A stretch of 64,000 nt of DNA, taken from positions 33,337 to 97,336 of the forward strand of contig CACYUI010000002.1 of the NCBI GenBank assembly GCA_902777605.1, read 5' to 3'. This DNA is from an uncultured bacterium (GTDB lineage Bacteria; Cyanobacteriota; Vampirovibrionia; Gastranaerophilales; Gastranaerophilaceae). The notes beneath the pieces are model-generated. The model worked only from the letters and a program-made list of their open reading frames with translations, was not told the origin of the DNA and did no database searches. A program made the translations under genes and the position numbers. Positions 2,456-16,772 of this stretch are shown piece by piece (within the stretch, counting starts at the first letter, position 1; every line of letters begins with the position of its first letter).

Positions 2456-3136
2456 ATGATGAGCAAAATTAGTATAATAATTCCTGTTTTTAATGAAAAA
2501 ATCTTTTTGTTAGAACTTCTAAAAAATGTTGAAGCTGTTGACTTTGGCTTAGAAAAAGAAATCATTTTAGTTGATGATTATTCTACTGACGGAACAAAAG
2601 AGTTATACAAAAATTTACCTTATAAAGTTATTTATCATGAAAAGAATATGGGCAAAGGCGCTGCTCTTCGAGACGGAATAAAAGAAGCAACCGGCGATAT
2701 TATAATAATTCAAGATGCTGATTTGGAATACAATCCTACAGACTACATACCCTTAGTAAATCTTATTAAAAACAATGAAGCAGATGTCGTTTATGGTTCA
2801 AGATTCCGTGGCAATAATAAGAACTTTTTATTGCTTAGTTTTTTAGCTAACAAATTTTTGACTATATTAACGCAGATATTATATAAGACTACTTTAACAG
2901 ATATGGAAACTTGTTATAAGGCTTTTAAAAGTGAAGTGATAAAAAATATTGAAATTAAGTCTAACAGATTTGATTTTGAGCCTGAAATAACAGCAAAAGT
3001 TTTGAAACAAGGGGTAAAGTTTAAAGAACTGCCTATTTCATACAATGCCCGAAAAAATAGCGAAGGTAAAAAGGTAAATTGGAAAGACGGAGTACAGGCA
3101 ATATTTACGCTTATTAAATATAAATTTTTTGATTAA
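2456..3136 (+). CDS. Glycosyltransferase family 2 (DPM1-like)
   Basis: [55 protein letters not shown]. Confidence 0.9.
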
Positions 3137-3149
3137 TATTATATAAAAA

Positions 3150-3176
3150 TAGGACGCATAATCATATGCGCCCTAC
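3150..3176 (-). repeat. GTAG-tagged REP-like hairpin
   Basis: Minus strand reads GTAGGGCGCATA-TGAT-TATGCGTCCTA; lies between convergent genes. Confidence 0.6.
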
Positions 3177-3207
3177 TTTTATTTATTTTGTATTTATCAC
3201 TTAATCA

Positions 3208-5874
3208 TTAAGCATTAACTAATGTCTTGCGTGGGCAAGCGATTGCTGCTTGTGCTGCAGCAAGTTTAGCTTGCGGAATACGGAATGGTGAGCAAGATAC
3301 ATAGTTAAGTCCGATTTTGTGAGCGTACTTAACTGAGTCAGGATCTCCGCCGTGTTCGCCGCAGATACCGCCAACCAATGATGAGTTAATAGCTTTACCT
3401 TCGTTAATAGACATTTCGATAAGTCTTCCAACACCTTTTTGGTCTAAAGTGATGAATGGGTTAGAAGGAAGAATCTTTTGTTCTACATAATTCTTCAAGA
3501 ATTTACCTTCTGCATCATCTCTTGAGTAACCGAATGTCATCTGAGTAAGGTCGTTTGTACCATAAGAGAAGAATTCAGCTTCTGTAGCAACTTCATCTGC
3601 AGTTAAAGCTGCACGAGGAATTTCAATCATTGTACCGAATTTGTAATCAACTCTTACACCCTTTTCAGCCATAACTTGTTCAGCAACTGCAACTAATGTT
3701 GCCTTAGCTGTCTTAAGTTCGTTGATATGACCGATAAGAGGAATCATAATCCATGGTTGGATGTGGTGGCCTTCCTTAGTCAAATCACAGCAAGCTTCGA
3801 AGATTGCTCTAACTTGCATTTCATTGATTTCAGGATAAGTTAAACCTAAACGGCAACCTCTCAAGCCCATCATCGGGTTAGATTCTGACAAGTTCTCAAC
3901 GATTTCTAACATTTTTTCGTCTTCTGAGTAATCTTGATTCAAAGCACGCTTTGTAGCAACTTTTTCAATCAATTCTATCTTAGAAGGTAAGAATTCATGT
4001 AACGGCGGGTCTAATAGACGAACTGTCAAAGGTTTGTCGCCTAAAGCCTTGAACATTGAGTAGAAATCGGAGTATTGCATTGGAAGTAAGTGAGAAAGAG
4101 CTTCTTTTCTTGCTTCTGTAGTTGATGCAATAATCATTTTTTGTACCCAAGGAAGTCTGTCAGGATCCATGAACATGTGTTCAGTTCTGCAAAGACCAAC
4201 ACCTTCAGCACCGAATTTCTTAGCATTTTCGATATCTTTTGGAGTATCAGCGTTAGCTTCTACATGAAGTTCTTTTATTTCATCAACCCAAGAGAAGAAT
4301 GTTTCAAAGTCTTCATCAAGACCTGCTTGAACAAGCTCAATAGCGCCTTCCATAACTTCACCTGTACCACCGTCAAGAGAAATAATATCATCTTTGTGGA
4401 ATACAGTTCCGTCTGAACAAGTAATTGTTTCTTTTGCAAGGTCAATAATCAAGTCTTCACAACCTGAAACGCAAGGTTTACCCATACCTTTTGCAACAAC
4501 TGCAGCATGAGATGTAGCACCGCCTCTTAAAGTAAGAACACCTTGAGAAACAGCCATACCGTGAATATCATCAGGACAAGTTTCGATTCTTACTAAGATA
4601 ACTTTTTCGCCTGCTTCACCGCGACGAGCAGCTTCTTCAGTATCAAATACAATTTTACCTACTGCAGCACCCGGAGATGCGTTAACACCCTTAGAAACCT
4701 TGTGAGAGTGTTTAACTTTATCAGGATTAAAGCAAGGTAACAATACTTGGTATACAGAATAAGGATCAACTTGGTTGATAGCTTCTTCTTTTGTTATAAT
4801 ACCTTCTCTAAACATATCAACAGCAATTTTAATAGCAGCCTTAGCCGTTCTCTTACCGTTACGAGTTTGAAGTATCCAAAGTTTACCGCGTTCAACAGTA
4901 AATTCCATATCTTGAACATCGTGATAACCTTTTTCTAATTGTTTAGCTATATCTACATATTGACGATAGATGTCAGGCATATCTGTTTCAAGTTCTGCAA
5001 TTTGTTTAGGAGTTCTGATACCTGCAACAACATCTTCACCTTGAGCATTAACAAGGTATTCACCGTAGAATTTGTTTTCTCCTGTTGCAGGGTTACGAGT
5101 AAATGAAACACCTGTTGCACAATCGTTACCCATGTTACCGAATACCATTGTTTGAACATTAACTGCAGTACCGAAGTTGTGGTCAATTTTGTTCATGTTT
5201 CTGTAAGCAACTGCTCTCGGAATATTCCAAGATCTAAATACTGCTTCAATAGCTTCTTGAAGTTGTACATAAGGATCTTGCGGGAATTCCTTTCCTGTAA
5301 CTTCTTTAATTTTTGCTTTATATATAGGAATCAATGACTTCCATCCTTCAGCAGAAATCTCAGTATCAGAAGTTACGCCTTCTCTAGCTTTAACTTTTTC
5401 AACTTCAGATTCAAAGTATTTTTGTCTGTCCATTTCCCAAGCAACAGAACCAAACATTGTTAAAAATCTTCTGTATGAATCATAGCAGAAGCGCGGGTTG
5501 TTAGTTAATTTAACCATAGCTTCTACAGTTTCATCATTAAGACCTAAGTTTAATATTGTTTCCATCATACCGGGCATAGAAACTCTAGCACCTGATCTAA
5601 CAGAAACTAAAAGTGGATTGTTCAAATCACCAAACTTTTTACCTGCTTGTTCTTCAACTGTCTTAAGAGCGAATTTAACTTCGTCCATAAGCCCTTCTGG
5701 CATTTTGTTACCGTGATTGATGTAATCCATACATGTTTCAGTTGTAATTGTAAGTCCCGGAGGAACAGGAAGACCTAAATTAGTCATTTCTGCAAGGTTA
5801 GCACCTTTACCGCCGAGGAGTGCACGCATATCTGCGTTACCTTCTTTGAATAGCCATACTCTTTTTTCAGCCAT
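3208..5874 (-). CDS. ppdK: Pyruvate, phosphate dikinase
   Basis: LLGGKGANLAEM, PLLVSVRSGA, GGATSHAAVVA (phospho-His), GVGLCRTEHMF, GICGEHGGDP; full length 888 aa. Confidence 0.98.
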   Translation of the reverse strand: MAEKRVWLFKEGNADMRALLGGKGANLAEMTNLGLPVPPGLTITTETCMDYINHGNKMPEGLMDEVKFALKTVEEQAGKKFGDLNNPLLVSVRSGARVSMPGMMETILNLGLNDETVEAMVKLTNNPRFCYDSYRRFLTMFGSVAWEMDRQKYFESEVEKVKAREGVTSDTEISAEGWKSLIPIYKAKIKEVTGKEFPQDPYVQLQEAIEAVFRSWNIPRAVAYRNMNKIDHNFGTAVNVQTMVFGNMGNDCATGVSFTRNPATGENKFYGEYLVNAQGEDVVAGIRTPKQIAELETDMPDIYRQYVDIAKQLEKGYHDVQDMEFTVERGKLWILQTRNGKRTAKAAIKIAVDMFREGIITKEEAINQVDPYSVYQVLLPCFNPDKVKHSHKVSKGVNASPGAAVGKIVFDTEEAARRGEAGEKVILVRIETCPDDIHGMAVSQGVLTLRGGATSHAAVVAKGMGKPCVSGCEDLIIDLAKETITCSDGTVFHKDDIISLDGGTGEVMEGAIELVQAGLDEDFETFFSWVDEIKELHVEANADTPKDIENAKKFGAEGVGLCRTEHMFMDPDRLPWVQKMIIASTTEARKEALSHLLPMQYSDFYSMFKALGDKPLTVRLLDPPLHEFLPSKIELIEKVATKRALNQDYSEDEKMLEIVENLSESNPMMGLRGCRLGLTYPEINEMQVRAIFEACCDLTKEGHHIQPWIMIPLIGHINELKTAKATLVAVAEQVMAEKGVRVDYKFGTMIEIPRAALTADEVATEAEFFSYGTNDLTQMTFGYSRDDAEGKFLKNYVEQKILPSNPFITLDQKGVGRLIEMSINEGKAINSSLVGGICGEHGGDPDSVKYAHKIGLNYVSCSPFRIPQAKLAAAQAAIACPRKTLVNA

Positions 5875-12570: not shown

Positions 12571-14787
12571 TTAACCAAATAGGTTATTAAGTTCAGTAAT
12601 AATACCTTCGTTTGGTGAATGTCCGTCACAAGTGCATTTACATTCAACTTTACCTGTAACATCAACAGTAACTTTGACATCGTGGTCTTCAATTTTGACT
12701 TCAATATCTTTTAAGCCTTTTTTAAGCAATTCTATAATTTCATTTATACCTGCAATCATTGTATCAGCTTTAATATTCATGTCGCCAAGCTTAACATTTG
12801 TTTCATTACCGTTCTTTTCTATTTTTGCTAAGAACTCAAGGATTTTATCCATGTTAACCTTGCCACTATTAATGATAACTTTCAGATTTGCTTGTGTATT
12901 GGCATCGAGAGCTTTGATTGCATTCAGTATTTCATCCATCTTGGCAAGACTCAATTTACCTTGTTCTAACAATGCTTTAAATCCTTCAGCGGTTGTTGTT
13001 CCAAGAGTCTTAATAGCTTCAAGTATTTTTTCGCCGATTTCTTTTGCATCTTTACCATTTTGAACAACATTATTGTTGATTGTCTTCAACAGTTCTGTCA
13101 TATCTTTGAGCTCTTGTGTATTACCATTGATTGCTTCAAGGATTGCTTGTAAGTATGCCTCTGTTTTAGAACCATCACCTATGTTCAAGTTCTTGATTGC
13201 TTTAAGAATTTCTTTCATCAATGCAATACCGGTATCACCTTGTGCTAATACTTTAGCAAATCCTGCTGACATATTTACACCAAGTTTGTTAATAGCCTCA
13301 ACTGTTTGTTTACCAATTTCTTTTGCTTCTTTTCTACCGTCGGTAATATTCTTATTGATGGCGTTGAGTAATGCTGTAATATCATCAAGTTTGCCGCCAT
13401 TTTTAACGATTGCATTTAATAGTGCCGTAAATTGAGCTTTGTTTTCGTCACCAAGATTTGCAAGAGCTTTTAATACTGCATTATAGAATGCTTCTGCTTT
13501 ATCACCTTGTTCATTAATTTTGTCTAATATAGCTTGACTAATACCAAGTTGAACTTTTATGTTATTATTCAATTCAGCTAACTGACCACTAATTTGAACT
13601 GTGGTGAAATCAATGTGTTTCAGAAGTTGCAACATTAACAATAATTTTTCACTATCTTTAGTTTGAGTATTTCTAATTTTTTCAAGAAGAGCCTTAATAT
13701 CTTGTTGCGTAGCACCATTAATTGTTACTTGATTTAGTATAGCATCTATTTTACCTGCTAAAGCTTCTAAAGACCCTCTAATAGAAGAAATATCAGCATT
13801 TCCTGATTTAATTAGATTAATAATCATATTTAAATCGCCTTGGAACTCTGATTTAATTGATGCAGGAAGAGCTTTAATAAGTGCTGTTAAGTCTTTGACA
13901 GCATTTTCTACATTATAAACAGCCTCCAACAAGTCATCAAATCCCATATTCATGTCATTTTGAATCTTTTTAAGCAATGCGTTATTATCTACTACTGCAG
14001 TCAAAATTTGTGGTAAATAGTTTCCACATGTATTTTTGATATCTTGCAATGAATCACCATTTTTAATAGATTGTTCAAGCAACTGTATTAGTATTGCATT
14101 ACTTACATCTTGTTTTTCATTAAGTGCATTAATAGCATCGGCCAATGACTTTAACTCAATTCCTACTTCAACGGTCTGCTCAGTACTGCACATACCCATA
14201 ATACCTGTCGCAGCACCTGCATAGCCAAGTAATGTACTAAATGTATTTTCAATACTAAAATTCCCATTAGCATCTGTAAACCCTCTGTAATTGGATTCTT
14301 TCATTTCATCAGGAAATGGAAATTCTACTTTACCTTTAGTCGCATTATATGCAACTAGTCTTGCGGGAGCAATCTTTTCTTTTTGTCTAAAATATTTTTC
14401 TTTTATTTGAGTACCATCTTTTGCATAAAATTTATAAGTTTCTTTACCGGTTTTCGGATCTTTTTGATATACGATATATCTTCCAGATTTCATAGTACAA
14501 AATTTAGGTTCATATTTTTGCGGATTTTTTGCTCTGTCTTTTTTTACTTCTGCTTGATTTAACTGTGCAAAGTTTTTGGAATGTTTAAAATCTAACTTCT
14601 CGCCTACACCCCAATTAGCATTACCATTTATTGTTTCTAAAGCTGCATCATCTGCTTTTGTCCATGCACCATTTTGCTTTGCCATAGCAATAGCGTCTTC
14701 AACAGATTTTGCAATTGTCATAAATGGTTTTAACTTTGATTGTTGTGTCGGTGTTAAATCACTAAAATCAATTTTTCCAAATGCCAT
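12571..14787 (-). CDS. Large coiled-coil repeat protein (~738 aa), function unknown
   Basis: Start moved to ATG 14787 (GAAAGGAG RBS); long heptad region with internal repeats KEAKEIGKQTVEAINKLG / KDAKEIGEKILEAIKTLG. Confidence 0.8.
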   Translation of the reverse strand: MAFGKIDFSDLTPTQQSKLKPFMTIAKSVEDAIAMAKQNGAWTKADDAALETINGNANWGVGEKLDFKHSKNFAQLNQAEVKKDRAKNPQKYEPKFCTMKSGRYIVYQKDPKTGKETYKFYAKDGTQIKEKYFRQKEKIAPARLVAYNATKGKVEFPFPDEMKESNYRGFTDANGNFSIENTFSTLLGYAGAATGIMGMCSTEQTVEVGIELKSLADAINALNEKQDVSNAILIQLLEQSIKNGDSLQDIKNTCGNYLPQILTAVVDNNALLKKIQNDMNMGFDDLLEAVYNVENAVKDLTALIKALPASIKSEFQGDLNMIINLIKSGNADISSIRGSLEALAGKIDAILNQVTINGATQQDIKALLEKIRNTQTKDSEKLLLMLQLLKHIDFTTVQISGQLAELNNNIKVQLGISQAILDKINEQGDKAEAFYNAVLKALANLGDENKAQFTALLNAIVKNGGKLDDITALLNAINKNITDGRKEAKEIGKQTVEAINKLGVNMSAGFAKVLAQGDTGIALMKEILKAIKNLNIGDGSKTEAYLQAILEAINGNTQELKDMTELLKTINNNVVQNGKDAKEIGEKILEAIKTLGTTTAEGFKALLEQGKLSLAKMDEILNAIKALDANTQANLKVIINSGKVNMDKILEFLAKIEKNGNETNVKLGDMNIKADTMIAGINEIIELLKKGLKDIEVKIEDHDVKVTVDVTGKVECKCTCDGHSPNEGIITELNNLFG

Positions 14788-14842
14788 AGTTTGTATTCTC
14801 CTTTCTAAATTTTCATAACAATACAATCCTACTTTGGTATTG

Positions 14843-14990: not shown

Positions 14991-15227
14991 GTGAATATCA
15001 AACAACAACTAAAGAAAAAAATTCAGCTTAAAGAACTAGAAATTAAGAAACTAAAGCTCCATGAGTCCTCTTCTGAAATCTGTGCACAATTATATAATAC
15101 ACTTATTTTAGAAAAAGCTATTTTAAAAAAGGAGCTAGATGACACTAAGAAAAACCCTATAATTGAAAAAATAAAAAAAGTACTCCCAAAACGCGAAAAG
15201 CTTATTTGCGATTATTTTAAAGAATAA
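14991..15227 (+). CDS. Small hypothetical coiled-coil protein
   Basis: GAGGT RBS, GTG start, 78 aa, Lys/Leu rich. Confidence 0.55.
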   Translation: MNIKQQLKKKIQLKELEIKKLKLHESSSEICAQLYNTLILEKAILKKELDDTKKNPIIEKIKKVLPKREKLICDYFKE

Positions 15228-15241
15228 TACATAATTTTTCT

Positions 15242-15404
15242 GGATTACTTCGTCGCTTCGCTCCTCGTAATGACACCTTCTGTCATTGCGAGAAAATCTT
15301 AATTTCCACATCAATACATTTTATTTTGGATTATTTCATCGCTTCGCTCCTCGTAATGACACTTTCTGTCATTGCGAGAAAATCTTTGATTTTCGCGGCA
15401 ATCT
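15242..15404. repeat. Tandem TGTC-tagged palindromic repeat halves
   Basis: Right halves GGATTACTTCGTCGCTTCGCTCCTCGTAATGACA at 15242-15275 and 15328-15361; left halves TGTCATTGCGAGAAAATC at 15281 and 15367. Confidence 0.85.
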
Positions 15405-15419
15405 ATATACAATTAAAGT

Positions 15420-15719
15420 ATGAACAAAGAAAAACAATATTATGTATATATTTTATTCAGTAAATATAATGGTACATTGTATGTTGGCGTAACTAATAAT
15501 CTTATAAGAAGGGTTTGGGAGCATAAAAATAAGATACTAAAAGGCTTTACTGAAAAATATAATGTTGATAAATTGGGCTATTTTGAAGCATGTGGAGATA
15601 TAAATTCAGCTATTGCAAGAGAAAAGCAATTAAAAGCAGGTAATAGAAAAAATAAGCTACTTTTAATAGAAAAGATGAATCCTTCATGGAAAGATTTGTA
15701 CTATGAAATAATCAAATAA
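15420..15719 (+). CDS. Small GIY-YIG nuclease (YhbQ/UPF0213-like)
   Basis: YYVYIL...LYVGVTNNLIRRVWEHK...FTEKYNVDKLGYFE...AIAREKQLK...NPSWKDL. Confidence 0.9.
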   Translation: MNKEKQYYVYILFSKYNGTLYVGVTNNLIRRVWEHKNKILKGFTEKYNVDKLGYFEACGDINSAIAREKQLKAGNRKNKLLLIEKMNPSWKDLYYEIIK

Positions 15720-15730
15720 TTATTTTTTTG

Positions 15731-15764
15731 GGATTACTTCGTCGCTTCGCTCCTCGTAATGACA
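15731..15764. repeat. Third right-half repeat copy
   Basis: Identical to 15242-15275. Confidence 0.85.
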
Positions 15765-15824
15765 TGGTATTTAATTCTTTGCGTATAGTTTTTGTTTATG
15801 ATATAATTATCTTAGAGGGGAATT

Positions 15825-16772
15825 ATGCATATAGATTACGATACTAAAAAGTCTATTAGAGGGGCATTTGGAGAAGAATTAGCAGAGCTTGGCAGTAAAA
15901 ATAAAGAAATTGTTGCTTTAGATGCTGATTTGTCAGGTTCTACAAAGTCTTCAACTTTCGCAAAAGCATATCCGGAAAGATTTTTTAATGTAGGCATTGC
16001 TGAGCAAGATTTGATTACTACTGCATTAGGTCTTTCTTTAACAGGCAAAATACCATTTGCATCTACTTTTGCAGTTTTTGCAACAGGCAGGGCATATGAC
16101 CAAATCAGAAATTCTATATGTTATCAAAAAGCTAATGTAAAAATAGTGGGTGCTCATGGCGGAATTACTGTTGGTGAAGACGGAGCAAGCCATCAAGCGT
16201 TAGAGGACATCGCTCTTATGCGTGAACTTCCTAACATGACAGTTATTGCTCCTGCAGATTATGAACAGATGAGGCAAGCTGTTAGATTTGCCGCTGAATA
16301 TAACGGACCGGTTTATATACGCTCATCAAGAGTCGATGTTCCTTGCATTTATGGAAATGATTATAAATTTAATCCTAAAAAAGCAGAAATTTTAATTGAA
16401 GGTAATGATATTACAATTTTGTCGTACGGTGATATTTTTGCAGAAGTTATTAAAGCTGCCGAAATATTGAAAGATAAAGGTATAAACGCTGAAGTTATAA
16501 ATGTTCCGGTAGTTAAACCGTTAGATACTGAAACAATCATTAAAAGTGTAAAAAAAACAAAAAGAGTTTTCACAGTAGAAAATCATTCTATTATAGGCGG
16601 CTTAGGCTCTGCCGTTTGTGAAACACTCGCAGAAGAAATGCCTACAAAAGTAACAAGAATTGGTATTAATGATACATTCGGGCAAAGCGGAACTCCAAAA
16701 GAATTGCTTAAGTTTTATGGTTTGGATGCTGATAGTATAGCAAGCAGAATACTTAAAGAAAAAGATATTTAA
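15825..16772 (+). CDS. Transketolase, C-terminal subunit
   Basis: DADLSGST, NVGIAEQ, RAYDQIR, GEDGASHQALED, ENHSIIGGLGS. Confidence 0.92.
   Translation: MHIDYDTKKSIRGAFGEELAELGSKNKEIVALDADLSGSTKSSTFAKAYPERFFNVGIAEQDLITTALGLSLTGKIPFASTFAVFATGRAYDQIRNSICYQKANVKIVGAHGGITVGEDGASHQALEDIALMRELPNMTVIAPADYEQMRQAVRFAAEYNGPVYIRSSRVDVPCIYGNDYKFNPKKAEILIEGNDITILSYGDIFAEVIKAAEILKDKGINAEVINVPVVKPLDTETIIKSVKKTKRVFTVENHSIIGGLGSAVCETLAEEMPTKVTRIGINDTFGQSGTPKELLKFYGLDADSIASRILKEKDI

What the first reader, a model, noticed from the sequence alone, without database searches (positions are those of the whole stretch)
15242..15764. GIY-YIG nuclease enclosed by TGTC-tagged palindromic repeats: candidate autonomous element for a REP class with no known mobiliser
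The array reads R(15242-15275) - 5 nt - L(15281) ... R(15328-15361) - 5 nt - L(15367-15404) - GIY-YIG ORF - R(15731-15764). L starts TGTCATTGCGAG and R ends CTCGTAATGACA, an 11/12 inverted match. So there is a gene-bearing L...R unit of 398 bp, an empty L...R unit of 81 bp and an orphan R, in tandem. This mirrors RAYT/REPIN organisation but with a GIY-YIG nickase-type protein instead of a HUH transposase. As far as I know, (C/T)GTC-tagged REPs have no assigned mobilising enzyme.
Basis: partly seen in the sequence, partly recalled or inferred. Interest (0 to 1): 0.7.

Follow-up and report, generated by a model that had tools for sequence, protein, structure and literature searches.

The report
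Ssn ssDNA nuclease with hairpin repeats
The small GIY-YIG gene flanked by TGTC-headed hairpin repeats is real, but it belongs to the Ssn family of repeat-specific single-stranded-DNA nucleases described in 2025; the added result is that this gene-plus-repeat cassette is present in some near-identical ruminant-gut strains and absent from others.

Summary
Three copies of a 34-nt repeat (R) and two of its inverted partner (L) surround a 99-aa GIY-YIG ORF (15420-15719), and there are no other copies in the 64 kb.

The pairing is not new. Chenal et al. 2025 (PMC11893778) described Ssn: about 94-aa single-domain GIY-YIG nucleases flanked by CGTC/TGTC-headed hairpin repeats (NTS/SRM), which they bind and cut only as single-stranded DNA.

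Evidence for membership:
- The window protein is 49% identical to the N. gonorrhoeae SsnA orthologue (pairwise E 2e-34), and the catalytic Tyr/Tyr/Glu align.
- Of 76 relatives from more than 15 phyla, 71 have GTC-headed hairpins within 250 nt and 62 have them on both sides. Some carry the canonical Neisseria NTS.
- The repeats here share the NTS head (YGTCATT) and tail (AATCC) but are longer, so the published SRM search pattern misses them.

New here:
- Paralogous cassettes in other genomes are alike exactly from head to head.
- At this locus near-identical strains carry the cassette (X1, X6, X8) or lack it (X2, X3, X4, probably X7). The breakpoints lie inside the R copies.
- This shows gain or loss, not transposition. 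The "autonomous element" idea, which the 2025 authors also raised, remains unproven.

Verdict: new member of a known kind, of moderate-to-low interest.

The parts
15226..15386 (.). 86-bp tandem duplication (1.9 copies) that holds the two head-to-head R-5nt-L dimers
   Evidence: Tandem Repeats Finder: period 86, 90% matches, score 273. The repeat finder family D1.
15242..15275 (-). Repeat unit R1. The sense strand is the - strand: TGTCATTACGAGGAGCGAAGCGACGAAGTAATCC, followed by AG (tail CCAG).
   Evidence: Exact 34-mer. The head TGTCATT and tail AATCCAG are the same as in the Neisseria NTS, CGTCATT...AATCYRG.
15276..15280 (.). 5-nt spacer CCTTC between the heads of R1 and L1 (head-to-head dimer). 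As ssDNA, R1's end plus the spacer plus L1's start fold into a 12-bp hairpin.
   Evidence: I24. Fold of -10.5 kcal/mol, z -4.0.
15281..15317 (+). Unit L1, degenerate. The first 20 nt equal L2; the rest has decayed and has no intact stem or tail.
   Evidence: (D1).
15328..15361 (-). Repeat unit R2 (2 mismatches to R1 and R3), followed by the 5-nt spacer CTTTC (15362-15366)
15367..15404 (+). Unit L2, intact: TGTC-ATTGC-GAG-[AAAATC ttt GATTTT]-CGCG-GCAAT-CT. Predicted ssDNA hairpin with its head pointing away from the gene.
   Evidence: DNA fold of -8.3 kcal/mol, z -3.3, 0 of 200 shuffles as good. Homologous loci have the same frame with a different, still complementary inner stem.
15386..15413 (+). 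Promoter-like site: -35 TTGATT inside the L2 hairpin, 16-nt spacer, -10 TACAAT ending 6 nt before the ATG. This suggests a leaderless or near-leaderless transcript.
   Evidence: Consensus scan only: 9 of 12 positions match, and such sites are no more frequent than in shuffles. Inference.
15420..15719 (+). ssn-type gene: a 99-aa single-domain GIY-YIG nuclease
   Evidence: Pfam PF01541, E 2.9e-14. 49% identity to the N. gonorrhoeae SsnA orthologue, pairwise E 2e-34, with Y10/Y21/E68 aligned to Y6/Y17/E64. 2586 homologues.
15731..15764 (-). Repeat unit R3, identical to R1. Its tail lies 11 nt after the stop codon and its head points away from the gene.
   Evidence: The same tail-in geometry predominates in homologous loci: upstream + 49:26, downstream - 62:22.

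Best explanation
The ORF is a member of the Ssn family: small, monomeric, single-domain GIY-YIG endonucleases that act only on single-stranded DNA. The repeats around it are its cognate recognition sites, a long-stem variant of the CGTC/TGTC-tagged NTS/SRM hairpin repeats.

By analogy with the characterised Neisseria, N. elongata, N. wadsworthii and Wolbachia enzymes, the inferred mechanism is as follows. The protein binds the unit when that strand is single-stranded and folded, for example during transformation, conjugation, replication or repair. The stem and the C just 3' of it are needed for binding. The enzyme then cuts a few nucleotides 5' of the YGTC head.

In this locus the heads of L2 (top strand) and R3 (bottom strand) point outward. 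The predicted cut sites therefore bracket the L2-gene-R3 cassette: about 15360-15366 on the top strand and just right of 15764 on the bottom strand.

The cassette is a discrete, horizontally spread unit that is gained or lost. At this locus it is polymorphic among near-identical strains. The simplest route between the observed alleles is recombination between the direct R copies.

Shown here: family membership, repeat association, cassette boundaries and polymorphism. Inferred: ssDNA binding and cleavage by this protein, the cut positions, and the biological role (modulating incoming or exposed ssDNA and recombination).
For: - Published system: PMC11893778.
- Protein: 99 aa, GIY-YIG domain only. 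tblastn finds the N. gonorrhoeae 94-aa orthologue (MQPAVY..., Y6/Y17/E64, surrounded by 9 canonical NTS in 3.3 kb) at E 5e-24. Pairwise identity is 49%, E 2e-34, full length, with catalytic residues aligned.
- Repeats: same head YGTCATT and tail AATCC(AG) as the NTS. L2 folds as an ssDNA hairpin.
- Generality, specific head: among the best 80 relatives in one genome per species (56-76% identity, more than 15 phyla), 44 of 75 have GTCATTGCGAG within 200 nt and 41 of 75 have it on both sides, a 27-fold local enrichment.
- Generality, any GTC-headed hairpin: 71 of 76 loci have one and 62 of 76 have them on both sides, against 18% of control windows. Several loci carry the exact Neisseria-type NTS, TGTCATTCCCGCGAAGGCGGGAATCCA.
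- Inner stems differ between loci but stay complementary.
- Protein similarity tracks repeat type: 0.617 within type against 0.587 between types, 0 of 2000 permutations as extreme.
- Cassette boundaries: paralogous copies in L185 and L195 are 72-100% identical from head to head and at background level outside. L152 is a perfect 426-bp tandem.
- Polymorphism: X1, X6 and X8 hold gene plus flanks. X2, X3 and X4 (and probably X7) hold flanks at 97% identity or more but nothing of the gene body. Contigs join 15241 to 15731 (X2) and 15327 to 15731 (X3) through one R copy.
- Syntenic species-level relatives lack the gene at this site.
Against: - The published SRM search pattern finds 0 matches in the window.
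- The R-type units are not predicted to fold stably as ssDNA (-0.8 kcal/mol, z +1.1), so their status as substrates is uncertain.
- CDD cd10448 assignment could not be run.
- No biochemical data exist for this protein or for this repeat variant.
- Orientation of units relative to the gene is not universal. Neisseria and Campylobacter loci have heads facing the gene.
- The polymorphism evidence rests on low-depth (2-5x) k-mer contigs, not raw reads.
Confidence: 0.85

Rival explanations
1. Autonomous mobile element. L-ssn-R would be an IS-like element whose GIY-YIG protein cuts at its own hairpin ends and moves the cassette. It would also move gene-less L..R doublets or solo units, preferentially inserting next to the head of a resident unit and so creating head-to-head dimers with a 5-nt spacer. 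This is compatible with the best explanation rather than exclusive of it.
For: - Inverted head-out ends bracket the gene in most loci.
- Paralogous cassettes share identity exactly from GTC head to GTC head.
- Identity is 60-76% across more than 15 phyla, including 74% to Campylobacter. The neighbouring transketolase gene finds nothing above 79% besides itself.
- Genomes carry several copies.
- The three alleles at this locus match stepwise addition of L..R units next to an R head: solo R; R plus an empty L..R; R plus an empty L..R plus L-gene-R.
- Gene-less L..spacer..R doublets occur in Campylobacter. An L-CAAAAC-R doublet occurs elsewhere in the source genome.
- Most motif copies are far from any ssn gene (0 of 120 within 300 nt), as REPINs are far from RAYTs.
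Against: - No target-site duplication or conserved target was seen outside the heads.
- All breakpoints fall within direct repeats, so host recombination suffices.
- Characterised Ssn enzymes cut one strand orientation only and have no known strand-transfer or ligation activity. With inverted ends, each strand is cut only once.
- No paper in the held library reports transposition.
- No homologue was found in GenBank phages. In the plasmid collection 31 of 32 hit records are non-mobilizable, and several are megabase-sized replicons or mislabelled chromosomes.
Confidence: 0.3
2. Free-standing homing endonuclease. The GIY-YIG protein would make a double-strand break in gene-less repeat alleles, and the gene would be copied in by repair.
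For: GIY-YIG is a classical homing-endonuclease fold. There is a weak match to TIGR01453, group I intron endonuclease (E 2.7e-4). The locus shows presence/absence polymorphism.
Against: - The TIGR01453 score is 21 bits against a cut-off of 56, and only residues 9-38 match.
- The protein has no DNA-binding extension, being 99 aa with domain 6-79.
- Family members do not cut dsDNA.
- The gene is not inside an intron, an intein or a conserved host gene.
Confidence: 0.05
3. A housekeeping repair nuclease of the UPF0213/YhbQ or Slx1 type that happens to sit among unrelated REP or terminator hairpins.
For: Small GIY-YIG proteins of the YhbQ type exist in many bacteria. R3 lies just after the stop codon, where a terminator would be.
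Against: - Solved UPF0213 structures (1zg2, 1ywl) match only at E 0.5-0.8.
- The repeats co-occur with homologues across phyla on both sides.
- The R strand does not fold, and no terminator-like site was found at R3.
- The gene is absent from syntenic relatives and from near-identical strains.
Confidence: 0.03

Closest known systems
Ssn nuclease family with NTS/SRM repeats (SsnA of Neisseria meningitidis, NMB0047/NMV_0044; Chenal et al., Nat Commun 2025, PMC11893778)
   Same: - Single-domain GIY-YIG protein of about 94-99 aa.
- 49% identity to the gonococcal orthologue with catalytic Y/Y/E aligned.
- Gene flanked on both sides by oriented hairpin repeats with head YGTCATT, a stem starting AT, a C after the stem and tail CCAG.
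- Wide cross-phylum distribution.
- Most repeat copies lie away from the gene.
   Different: - The repeat interior is longer and bipartite: a 5-bp ATTGC/GCAAT (or ATTAC/GTAAT) outer stem, a GAG/CGNN internal loop and a variable inner stem. It escapes the published SRM pattern.
- The R-type unit has no predicted stable hairpin.
- In the predominant geometry the heads point away from the gene, whereas at the Neisseria locus they face it.
- Only 5 units occur in 64 kb, against hundreds per Neisseria genome.
- The host is a low-GC (32%) ruminant-gut bacterium, probably Gastranaerophilales-like.
- There is no biochemistry for this member.
CGTC-tagged REPs (families CGTC-1 to -4; Di Nocera et al. 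2013, PMC3733652), including Neisseria dRS3 and Rickettsia RPE-4/-6
   Same: CGTC or TGTC head, stems beginning AT, a CCA-type tail and predominantly head-to-head dimers. The window has two head-to-head dimers with 5-nt spacers.
   Different: The described stems are 8-9 bp with 4-5-nt loops, and the families are high-copy and mostly alphaproteobacterial. Here the unit is 34-38 nt and low-copy in the window. The 2013 paper knew of no associated enzyme.
RAYT/REPIN systems (REP-associated tyrosine transposases of the IS200/IS605 HUH superfamily)
   Same: A single small gene is flanked by inverted copies of a hairpin repeat that is otherwise dispersed as singlets and inverted doublets. The enzyme recognises hairpins in ssDNA and needs a conserved unpaired tetranucleotide beside the stem.
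   Different: The catalytic fold is different (GIY-YIG hydrolase, not an HUH/Y1 transesterase) and the tag is different (YGTC, not GTAG). Ssn has no covalent intermediate or strand-joining chemistry known, and its transposition is unproven.

Membership tests
Ssn nuclease family (cd10448; Chenal 2025) | Small single-domain GIY-YIG protein (about 94 aa, under 150 aa) with no extra DNA-binding domain | tested here: met
   99 aa; PF01541 covers residues 6-79 and no other Pfam family matches.
Ssn nuclease family (cd10448; Chenal 2025) | Homology to Neisseria SsnA at E < 1e-10 (the authors' criterion) | tested here: met
   tblastn hits the N. gonorrhoeae chromosome at E 5e-24. The hit is a 94-aa ORF with Y6/Y17/E64, as published for N. 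meningitidis SsnA, inside a cluster of 9 NTS. Pairwise identity is 49%, E 2e-34.
Ssn nuclease family (cd10448; Chenal 2025) | Catalytic Tyr, Tyr and Glu (Y6, Y17, E64 in N. meningitidis SsnA) | tested here: met
   Y10, Y21 and E68 align without gaps between them. All three are invariant in 28 homologues.
Ssn nuclease family (cd10448; Chenal 2025) | Top CDD assignment cd10448 (GIY-YIG_unchar_3) and placement in the Ssn clade | not testable with these tools
   No CDD library is on hand. Indirect support: the protein is not UPF0213 (E 0.5-0.8 to 1zg2 and 1ywl).
Ssn nuclease family (cd10448; Chenal 2025) | [quoted passage not shown] | tested here: not met
   0 matches in the whole window, while the NTS control matches. 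The units do have the SRM architecture (head TGTCAT, AT-start stem, C after the stem, tail CCAG) but a longer interior.
Ssn nuclease family (cd10448; Chenal 2025) | Oriented hairpin repeats flank the gene across homologues | tested here: met
   71 of 76 loci have a GTC-headed hairpin within 250 nt and 62 of 76 have one on both sides, against 18% of control windows. Some homologues at 59-68% identity carry the canonical NTS.
Ssn nuclease family (cd10448; Chenal 2025) | Binds and cuts the repeat only as ssDNA, a few nt 5' of the head; inactive on dsDNA and RNA | not testable with these tools
   Requires purified protein and labelled oligonucleotides.
CGTC-tagged REP (Di Nocera 2013) | Unpaired CGTC/TGTC head, stem starting AT, short CCA-like tail | tested here: met
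   TGTC-ATT...AAT-CCAG (R1), -CCCA (R3), -CT (L2).
CGTC-tagged REP (Di Nocera 2013) | Stem of 8-9 bp with a 4-5-nt loop | tested here: not met
   L2 has a 5-bp outer stem, an internal loop and a 7-bp inner stem with a 3-nt loop. The R units have no stable predicted fold.
CGTC-tagged REP (Di Nocera 2013) | Predominantly head-to-head dimers | tested here: met
   R1-CCTTC-L1 and R2-CTTTC-L2.
CGTC-tagged REP (Di Nocera 2013) | High copy number dispersed through the genome | tested here: inconclusive
   Only 5 units in 64 kb, all at the gene. Contigs of the source run show at least one more L.R doublet elsewhere. The whole genome is not available.
RAYT/REPIN | HUH/Y1 transposase and GTAG-tagged REPs | tested here: not met
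   The protein is GIY-YIG and the tag is TGTC.
Insertion sequence / transposon | Defined ends plus target-site duplication or a fixed target, and near-identical copies at unrelated sites | tested here: inconclusive
   Paralogue identity ends sharply at the GTC heads, but no target-site duplication was seen. The copies found are local (the same contig). The alleles at this locus are also explicable by R x R recombination.
GIY-YIG homing endonuclease (I-TevI type) | N-terminal GIY-YIG domain plus linker and C-terminal DNA-binding domain; passes TIGR01453 | tested here: not met
   21 bits against a cut-off of 56; 99 aa in total.
UPF0213 / YhbQ | Sequence similarity to the BH0048/EF2693/YhbQ group | tested here: not met
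   E 0.48 and 0.77 to PDB 1zg2 and 1ywl.

The most novel reading that the evidence does not exclude
L-ssn-R cassettes would be genuinely autonomous mobile elements of a new mechanistic class. In this reading a hydrolytic GIY-YIG ssDNA endonuclease cuts 5' of the outward-facing YGTC heads on the two strands. The cassette, or gene-less L..R doublets and single units acting as its non-autonomous derivatives, then inserts next to the head of a resident unit, building head-to-head dimers. The CGTC-tagged REPs of many phyla would then be its MITE-like progeny. The three alleles seen at this locus (solo R; R plus an empty L..R; R plus an empty L..R plus L-gene-R) would be successive insertion states.
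Probability: 0.25. Interest if true: 0.75.

Novelty: new member of a known kind. Interest (0 to 1): 0.35.

Why it matters
The finding independently rediscovers, from raw sequence, a pairing that had been open since 2013 and was published only in 2025: small GIY-YIG (Ssn) nucleases and CGTC/TGTC-tagged hairpin repeats.

It adds three modest points:
1. A widespread long-stem repeat subtype (GTCATTGCGAG...GCAATCC) escapes the published SRM pattern, so the reported association rates (71% and 42%) may be underestimates.
2. The unit that duplicates is exactly head-to-head L-gene-R.
3. There is a natural presence/absence polymorphism of the cassette among near-identical ruminant-gut strains. This gives a concrete locus at which the authors' hypothesis of a domesticated mobile element can be tested.

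If mobility were shown, CGTC REPs would gain a mobiliser with chemistry unlike that of any known transposase.

Tried and rejected
- Rfam: nothing at the locus at gathering thresholds, and only chance-level snoRNA-type hits at E up to 10. An RNA-motif reading was dropped. The promoter-like site lies between L2 and the ATG, so L2 is probably not in the mRNA.
- Literature by sequence string: only primers turned up. "GIY-YIG + repetitive extragenic palindromic" gave 0 papers and "GIY-YIG + REPIN" gave only author-name hits. "GIY-YIG + CGTC" found the key paper.
- Empty-site search by exact neighbour proteins: only the same strain was found, in contigs broken at R.
- Motif to gene direction in IMG/VR: 120 loci hold the motif, 2 have a family ORF and none within 300 nt. 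The repeats are therefore mostly dispersed, and proximity to the gene is a property of the gene, not of the repeat.
- GenBank phages: no homologue at E 1e-10.
- PADLOC: only marginal matches, PDC-S14 at E 1.4e-3 over the N-terminal motif. The gene is not a recognised defence gene.
- Supplementary data of the Ssn paper are not held, so the N. meningitidis SsnA sequence itself could not be used.
- Structure prediction and the 1.84-billion-protein scan were not run, because they would not change the verdict.

Full report
**1. The observation**

- The 34-mer GGATTACTTCGTCGCTTCGCTCCTCGTAATGACA (R) occurs at 15242, 15328 (2 mismatches) and 15731. It occurs nowhere else in 64 kb, and shuffles gave no match.
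- TGTCATTGCGAG (L) occurs at 15281 and 15367. It is an 11/12 inverted match to the end of R, across 5-nt spacers.
- The ORF 15420-15719 encodes 99 aa with a GIY-YIG domain (PF01541, E 2.9e-14).

Two refinements apply.
- R and L are one kind of unit in the two orientations: head YGTC, stem beginning ATT, tail AATCC.
- Tandem Repeats Finder shows that 15226-15386 is an 86-bp tandem duplication. The "empty 81-bp L..R unit" can therefore equally be read as the second copy of a duplicated head-to-head R-5nt-L dimer.
- L1 is degenerate after 20 nt. L2 is intact and folds as an ssDNA hairpin (-8.3 kcal/mol, z -3.3). The R-type sense strand is not predicted to fold (-0.8 kcal/mol, z +1.1).

**2. Generality**

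Homologues are very numerous: 2586 at E <= 1e-5. ORF calls that run long at either end read through the same repeats, giving peptides such as MSLRGGQRIDRRSNP and DCFTSFAMT.

A scan of one genome per species found 558 relatives. The best 80 are 56-76% identical and come from more than 15 phyla. Gastranaerophilales/Melainabacteria are closest, followed by Campylobacter, Helicobacter, Elusimicrobia, Patescibacteria, Nitrospirota, Bacillota, Bacteroidota and others.

Flank statistics for these loci:

| Measure | Result |
|---|---|
| GTCATTGCGAG (up to 1 mismatch) within 200 nt, either side | 44 of 75 loci |
| Same head on both sides | 41 of 75 loci |
| Density of that head | 5.0 per kb near the gene, 0.19 per kb further away |
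| Orientation of units | upstream mostly +, downstream mostly -, so tails face the gene |
| Any GTC-headed hairpin within 250 nt | 71 of 76 loci |
| GTC-headed hairpin on both sides | 62 of 76 loci |
| Control windows with such a hairpin | 18% |

Loci that lack this head carry other GTC-headed hairpins. These include TGTCATTCCCGCGAAGGCGGGAATCCA, which is the Neisseria NTS.

The unit has a constant frame, YGTC-ATTGC-GAG-[inner stem-loop]-CG(A/T)(A/G)-GCAAT-CC(AG). Its inner stem differs between loci but stays complementary.

In the reverse direction, the motif is common in IMG/VR contigs, with more than 120 loci. Only 2 of 120 hold a family ORF and none has one within 300 nt. The repeats are thus mostly dispersed.

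**3. What is known**

Di Nocera et al. 2013 defined CGTC-tagged REPs: a CGTC or TGTC head, stems starting AT, a CCA tail, mostly head-to-head dimers, and no known transposase.

Chenal et al. 2025 (PMC11893778) then reported the following.
- Neisseria NTS repeats (CGTCATTCCCGCGMAVGCGGGAATCYRG, which include dRS3) and related "SRM" hairpins flank a 94-aa single-domain GIY-YIG gene, ssnA (cd10448), across bacteria. 71% of homologues have at least one SRM and 42% have one on both sides.
- SsnA and three homologues bind the repeat only as ssDNA and cut a few nt 5' of it.
- The C after the stem is critical for binding, and the three nt before the stem are critical for cutting.
- SsnA lowers transformation by NTS-bearing DNA.
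- The authors note that NTS-ssnA-NTS looks like an IS and propose a domesticated mobile element. They do not show mobility.

No later paper in the held library does so either.

**4. Membership**

The plasmid collection contains gonococcal chromosomes mislabelled as plasmids. The window protein hits one of them at E 5e-24. The hit is a 94-aa ORF, MQPAVYILASQRNGTLYIGV..., with Y6, Y17 and E64 as published, and it sits among 9 canonical NTS in 3.3 kb.

Pairwise identity is 49% (E 2e-34) over the full length, and Y10/Y21/E68 align to the catalytic residues. UPF0213 structures match only at E about 0.5, and the homing-endonuclease model TIGR01453 scores far below its cut-off.

The published SRM pattern finds nothing in the window, because the interior of these units is longer. 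The head (YGTCATT) and tail (AATCCAG) are the same. I therefore file the gene as a member of the Ssn family, and the repeats as a long-stem variant of SRM/CGTC REPs.

**5. Mobility**

Evidence for a discrete, moving or exchanging cassette:
- Paralogous copies in L185 and L195 are 72-100% identical from the GTC head of L to the GTC head of R, and at background level outside. L152 holds a perfect 426-bp tandem of the cassette.
- The protein is 74% identical to a Campylobacter protein, whereas the adjacent transketolase subunit finds nothing above 79% other than itself.
- Syntenic relatives (transketolase 76% identical) keep the order 78-aa ORF, transketolase, ftsE, ftsX but have no ssn gene between. 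They have 278-432 nt there, carrying a different SRM-like type (GTCATTCTGAG...GAAGAATC).
- In ruminant-gut runs laid at 97% identity or more, X1, X6 and X8 hold the gene joined to these flanks. X2, X3, X4 and probably X7 hold the flanks but nothing of 15468-15689.
- In those runs a contig joins 15241 to 15731 through one R copy (X2, a solo-R allele), and another joins 15327 to 15731 (X3, an R.L1-spacer-R allele).

Limits of this evidence:
- The contigs are low-depth k-mer assemblies.
- All breakpoints lie inside direct R copies, so insertion cannot be told apart from R x R deletion.
- No target-site duplications were seen.
So does loss by recombination.

**6. Mechanism proposed**

Shown here: family membership, repeat association, cassette boundaries and polymorphism.

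Inferred from the characterised homologues: the protein binds L2 (top strand) and possibly the R units (bottom strand) when those strands are single-stranded, and cuts a few nt 5' of the TGTC head. These positions lie in the 5-nt spacer left of L2 and just right of 15764, so the cuts would bracket the cassette.

A promoter-like -35/-10 pair overlaps the L2 hairpin and ends 6 nt before the ATG (a consensus match only). This would allow binding at L2 to affect the gene's own expression, which is speculative.

The role is most likely the one shown in Neisseria: cutting exposed or incoming ssDNA at the repeats and thereby shaping recombination. A selfish, mobile origin or present is not excluded (probability about 0.25-0.3).

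**7. Verdict**

The central claim of a previously unassigned enzyme is superseded by the 2025 paper, and autonomy is unproven. This is a new member of a known kind. The useful additions are the long-stem repeat subtype, the head-to-head cassette boundaries and a natural presence/absence polymorphism.

Noticed in passing
L211-L214 (3568-4001 and 3722-4001), syntenic with window 15227-15825: Species-level relatives have no ssn gene between the 78-aa ORF and the transketolase subunit. The intergenic DNA instead holds units of another SRM-like type (CGTCATTCTGAGG...GAAGAATCGC). The site therefore collects GTC-headed repeats of different subtypes in different lineages.
   Followed up: partly
window 15403 joined to 15235 in contigs of runs X1 and X3: Contigs at genome-level depth (36x in X1) read L2-tail + CAAAAC + the sequence just before R. 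This is a gene-less tail-to-tail L.R doublet somewhere outside the window, resembling a REPIN-like derivative of the cassette.
   Followed up: no
L002 vs L003 (2800-2900): Two assemblies share an identical ssn cassette and right flank (L27/L21 operon) but have unrelated left flanks. The break lies about 25 nt 5' of the L head. In this cassette the inverted symmetry extends about 12 nt outside both heads (CGTTAATGTG...CACATTAACG). This could be a rearrangement at the repeat or a MAG misassembly.
   Followed up: partly
L049 2670-2857 and 5030-5104; L066; L017 11382-11520; L044: IMG/VR contigs carry tandem arrays of up to 15 same-orientation units at a 37-54-nt period, with no ssn gene on the contig.
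   Followed up: no
L216 (Planktothrix agardhii plasmid p1, NZ_LR882964.1 18847-19131): A 58%-identical homologue sits between a type IIL MmeI restriction-modification gene and DISARM drmA, that is, inside a defence island, with no NTS/SRM pattern match nearby.
   Followed up: no
L215 (NZ_CP119140.1): PLSDB lists 2.17-Mb Neisseria gonorrhoeae chromosomes as "plasmids". This was useful here, but it is a database error. The ssnA orthologue there has no feature in the gene table.
   Followed up: no
window 12571-14826 (-): A 751-aa low-complexity, repeat-rich ORF with no significant Pfam match is divergently placed upstream. Its orthologues vary between 734 and 781 aa among close relatives.
   Followed up: no
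window 15386-15413: A promoter-like -35 TTGATT lies inside the L2 hairpin, and a -10 TACAAT ends 6 nt before the ATG, with no Shine-Dalgarno sequence. L002 likewise has TATAAT abutting its ATG. ssn genes of this clade may be leaderless, with the repeat overlapping the promoter.
   Followed up: no
L004/L005 (Campylobacter sp., 2700-3500): The gene lies between two gene-less L-(about 90 nt AT-rich spacer)-R doublets whose spacers are similar to each other (MITE-like). The two strains differ in the number of upstream units.
   Followed up: partly
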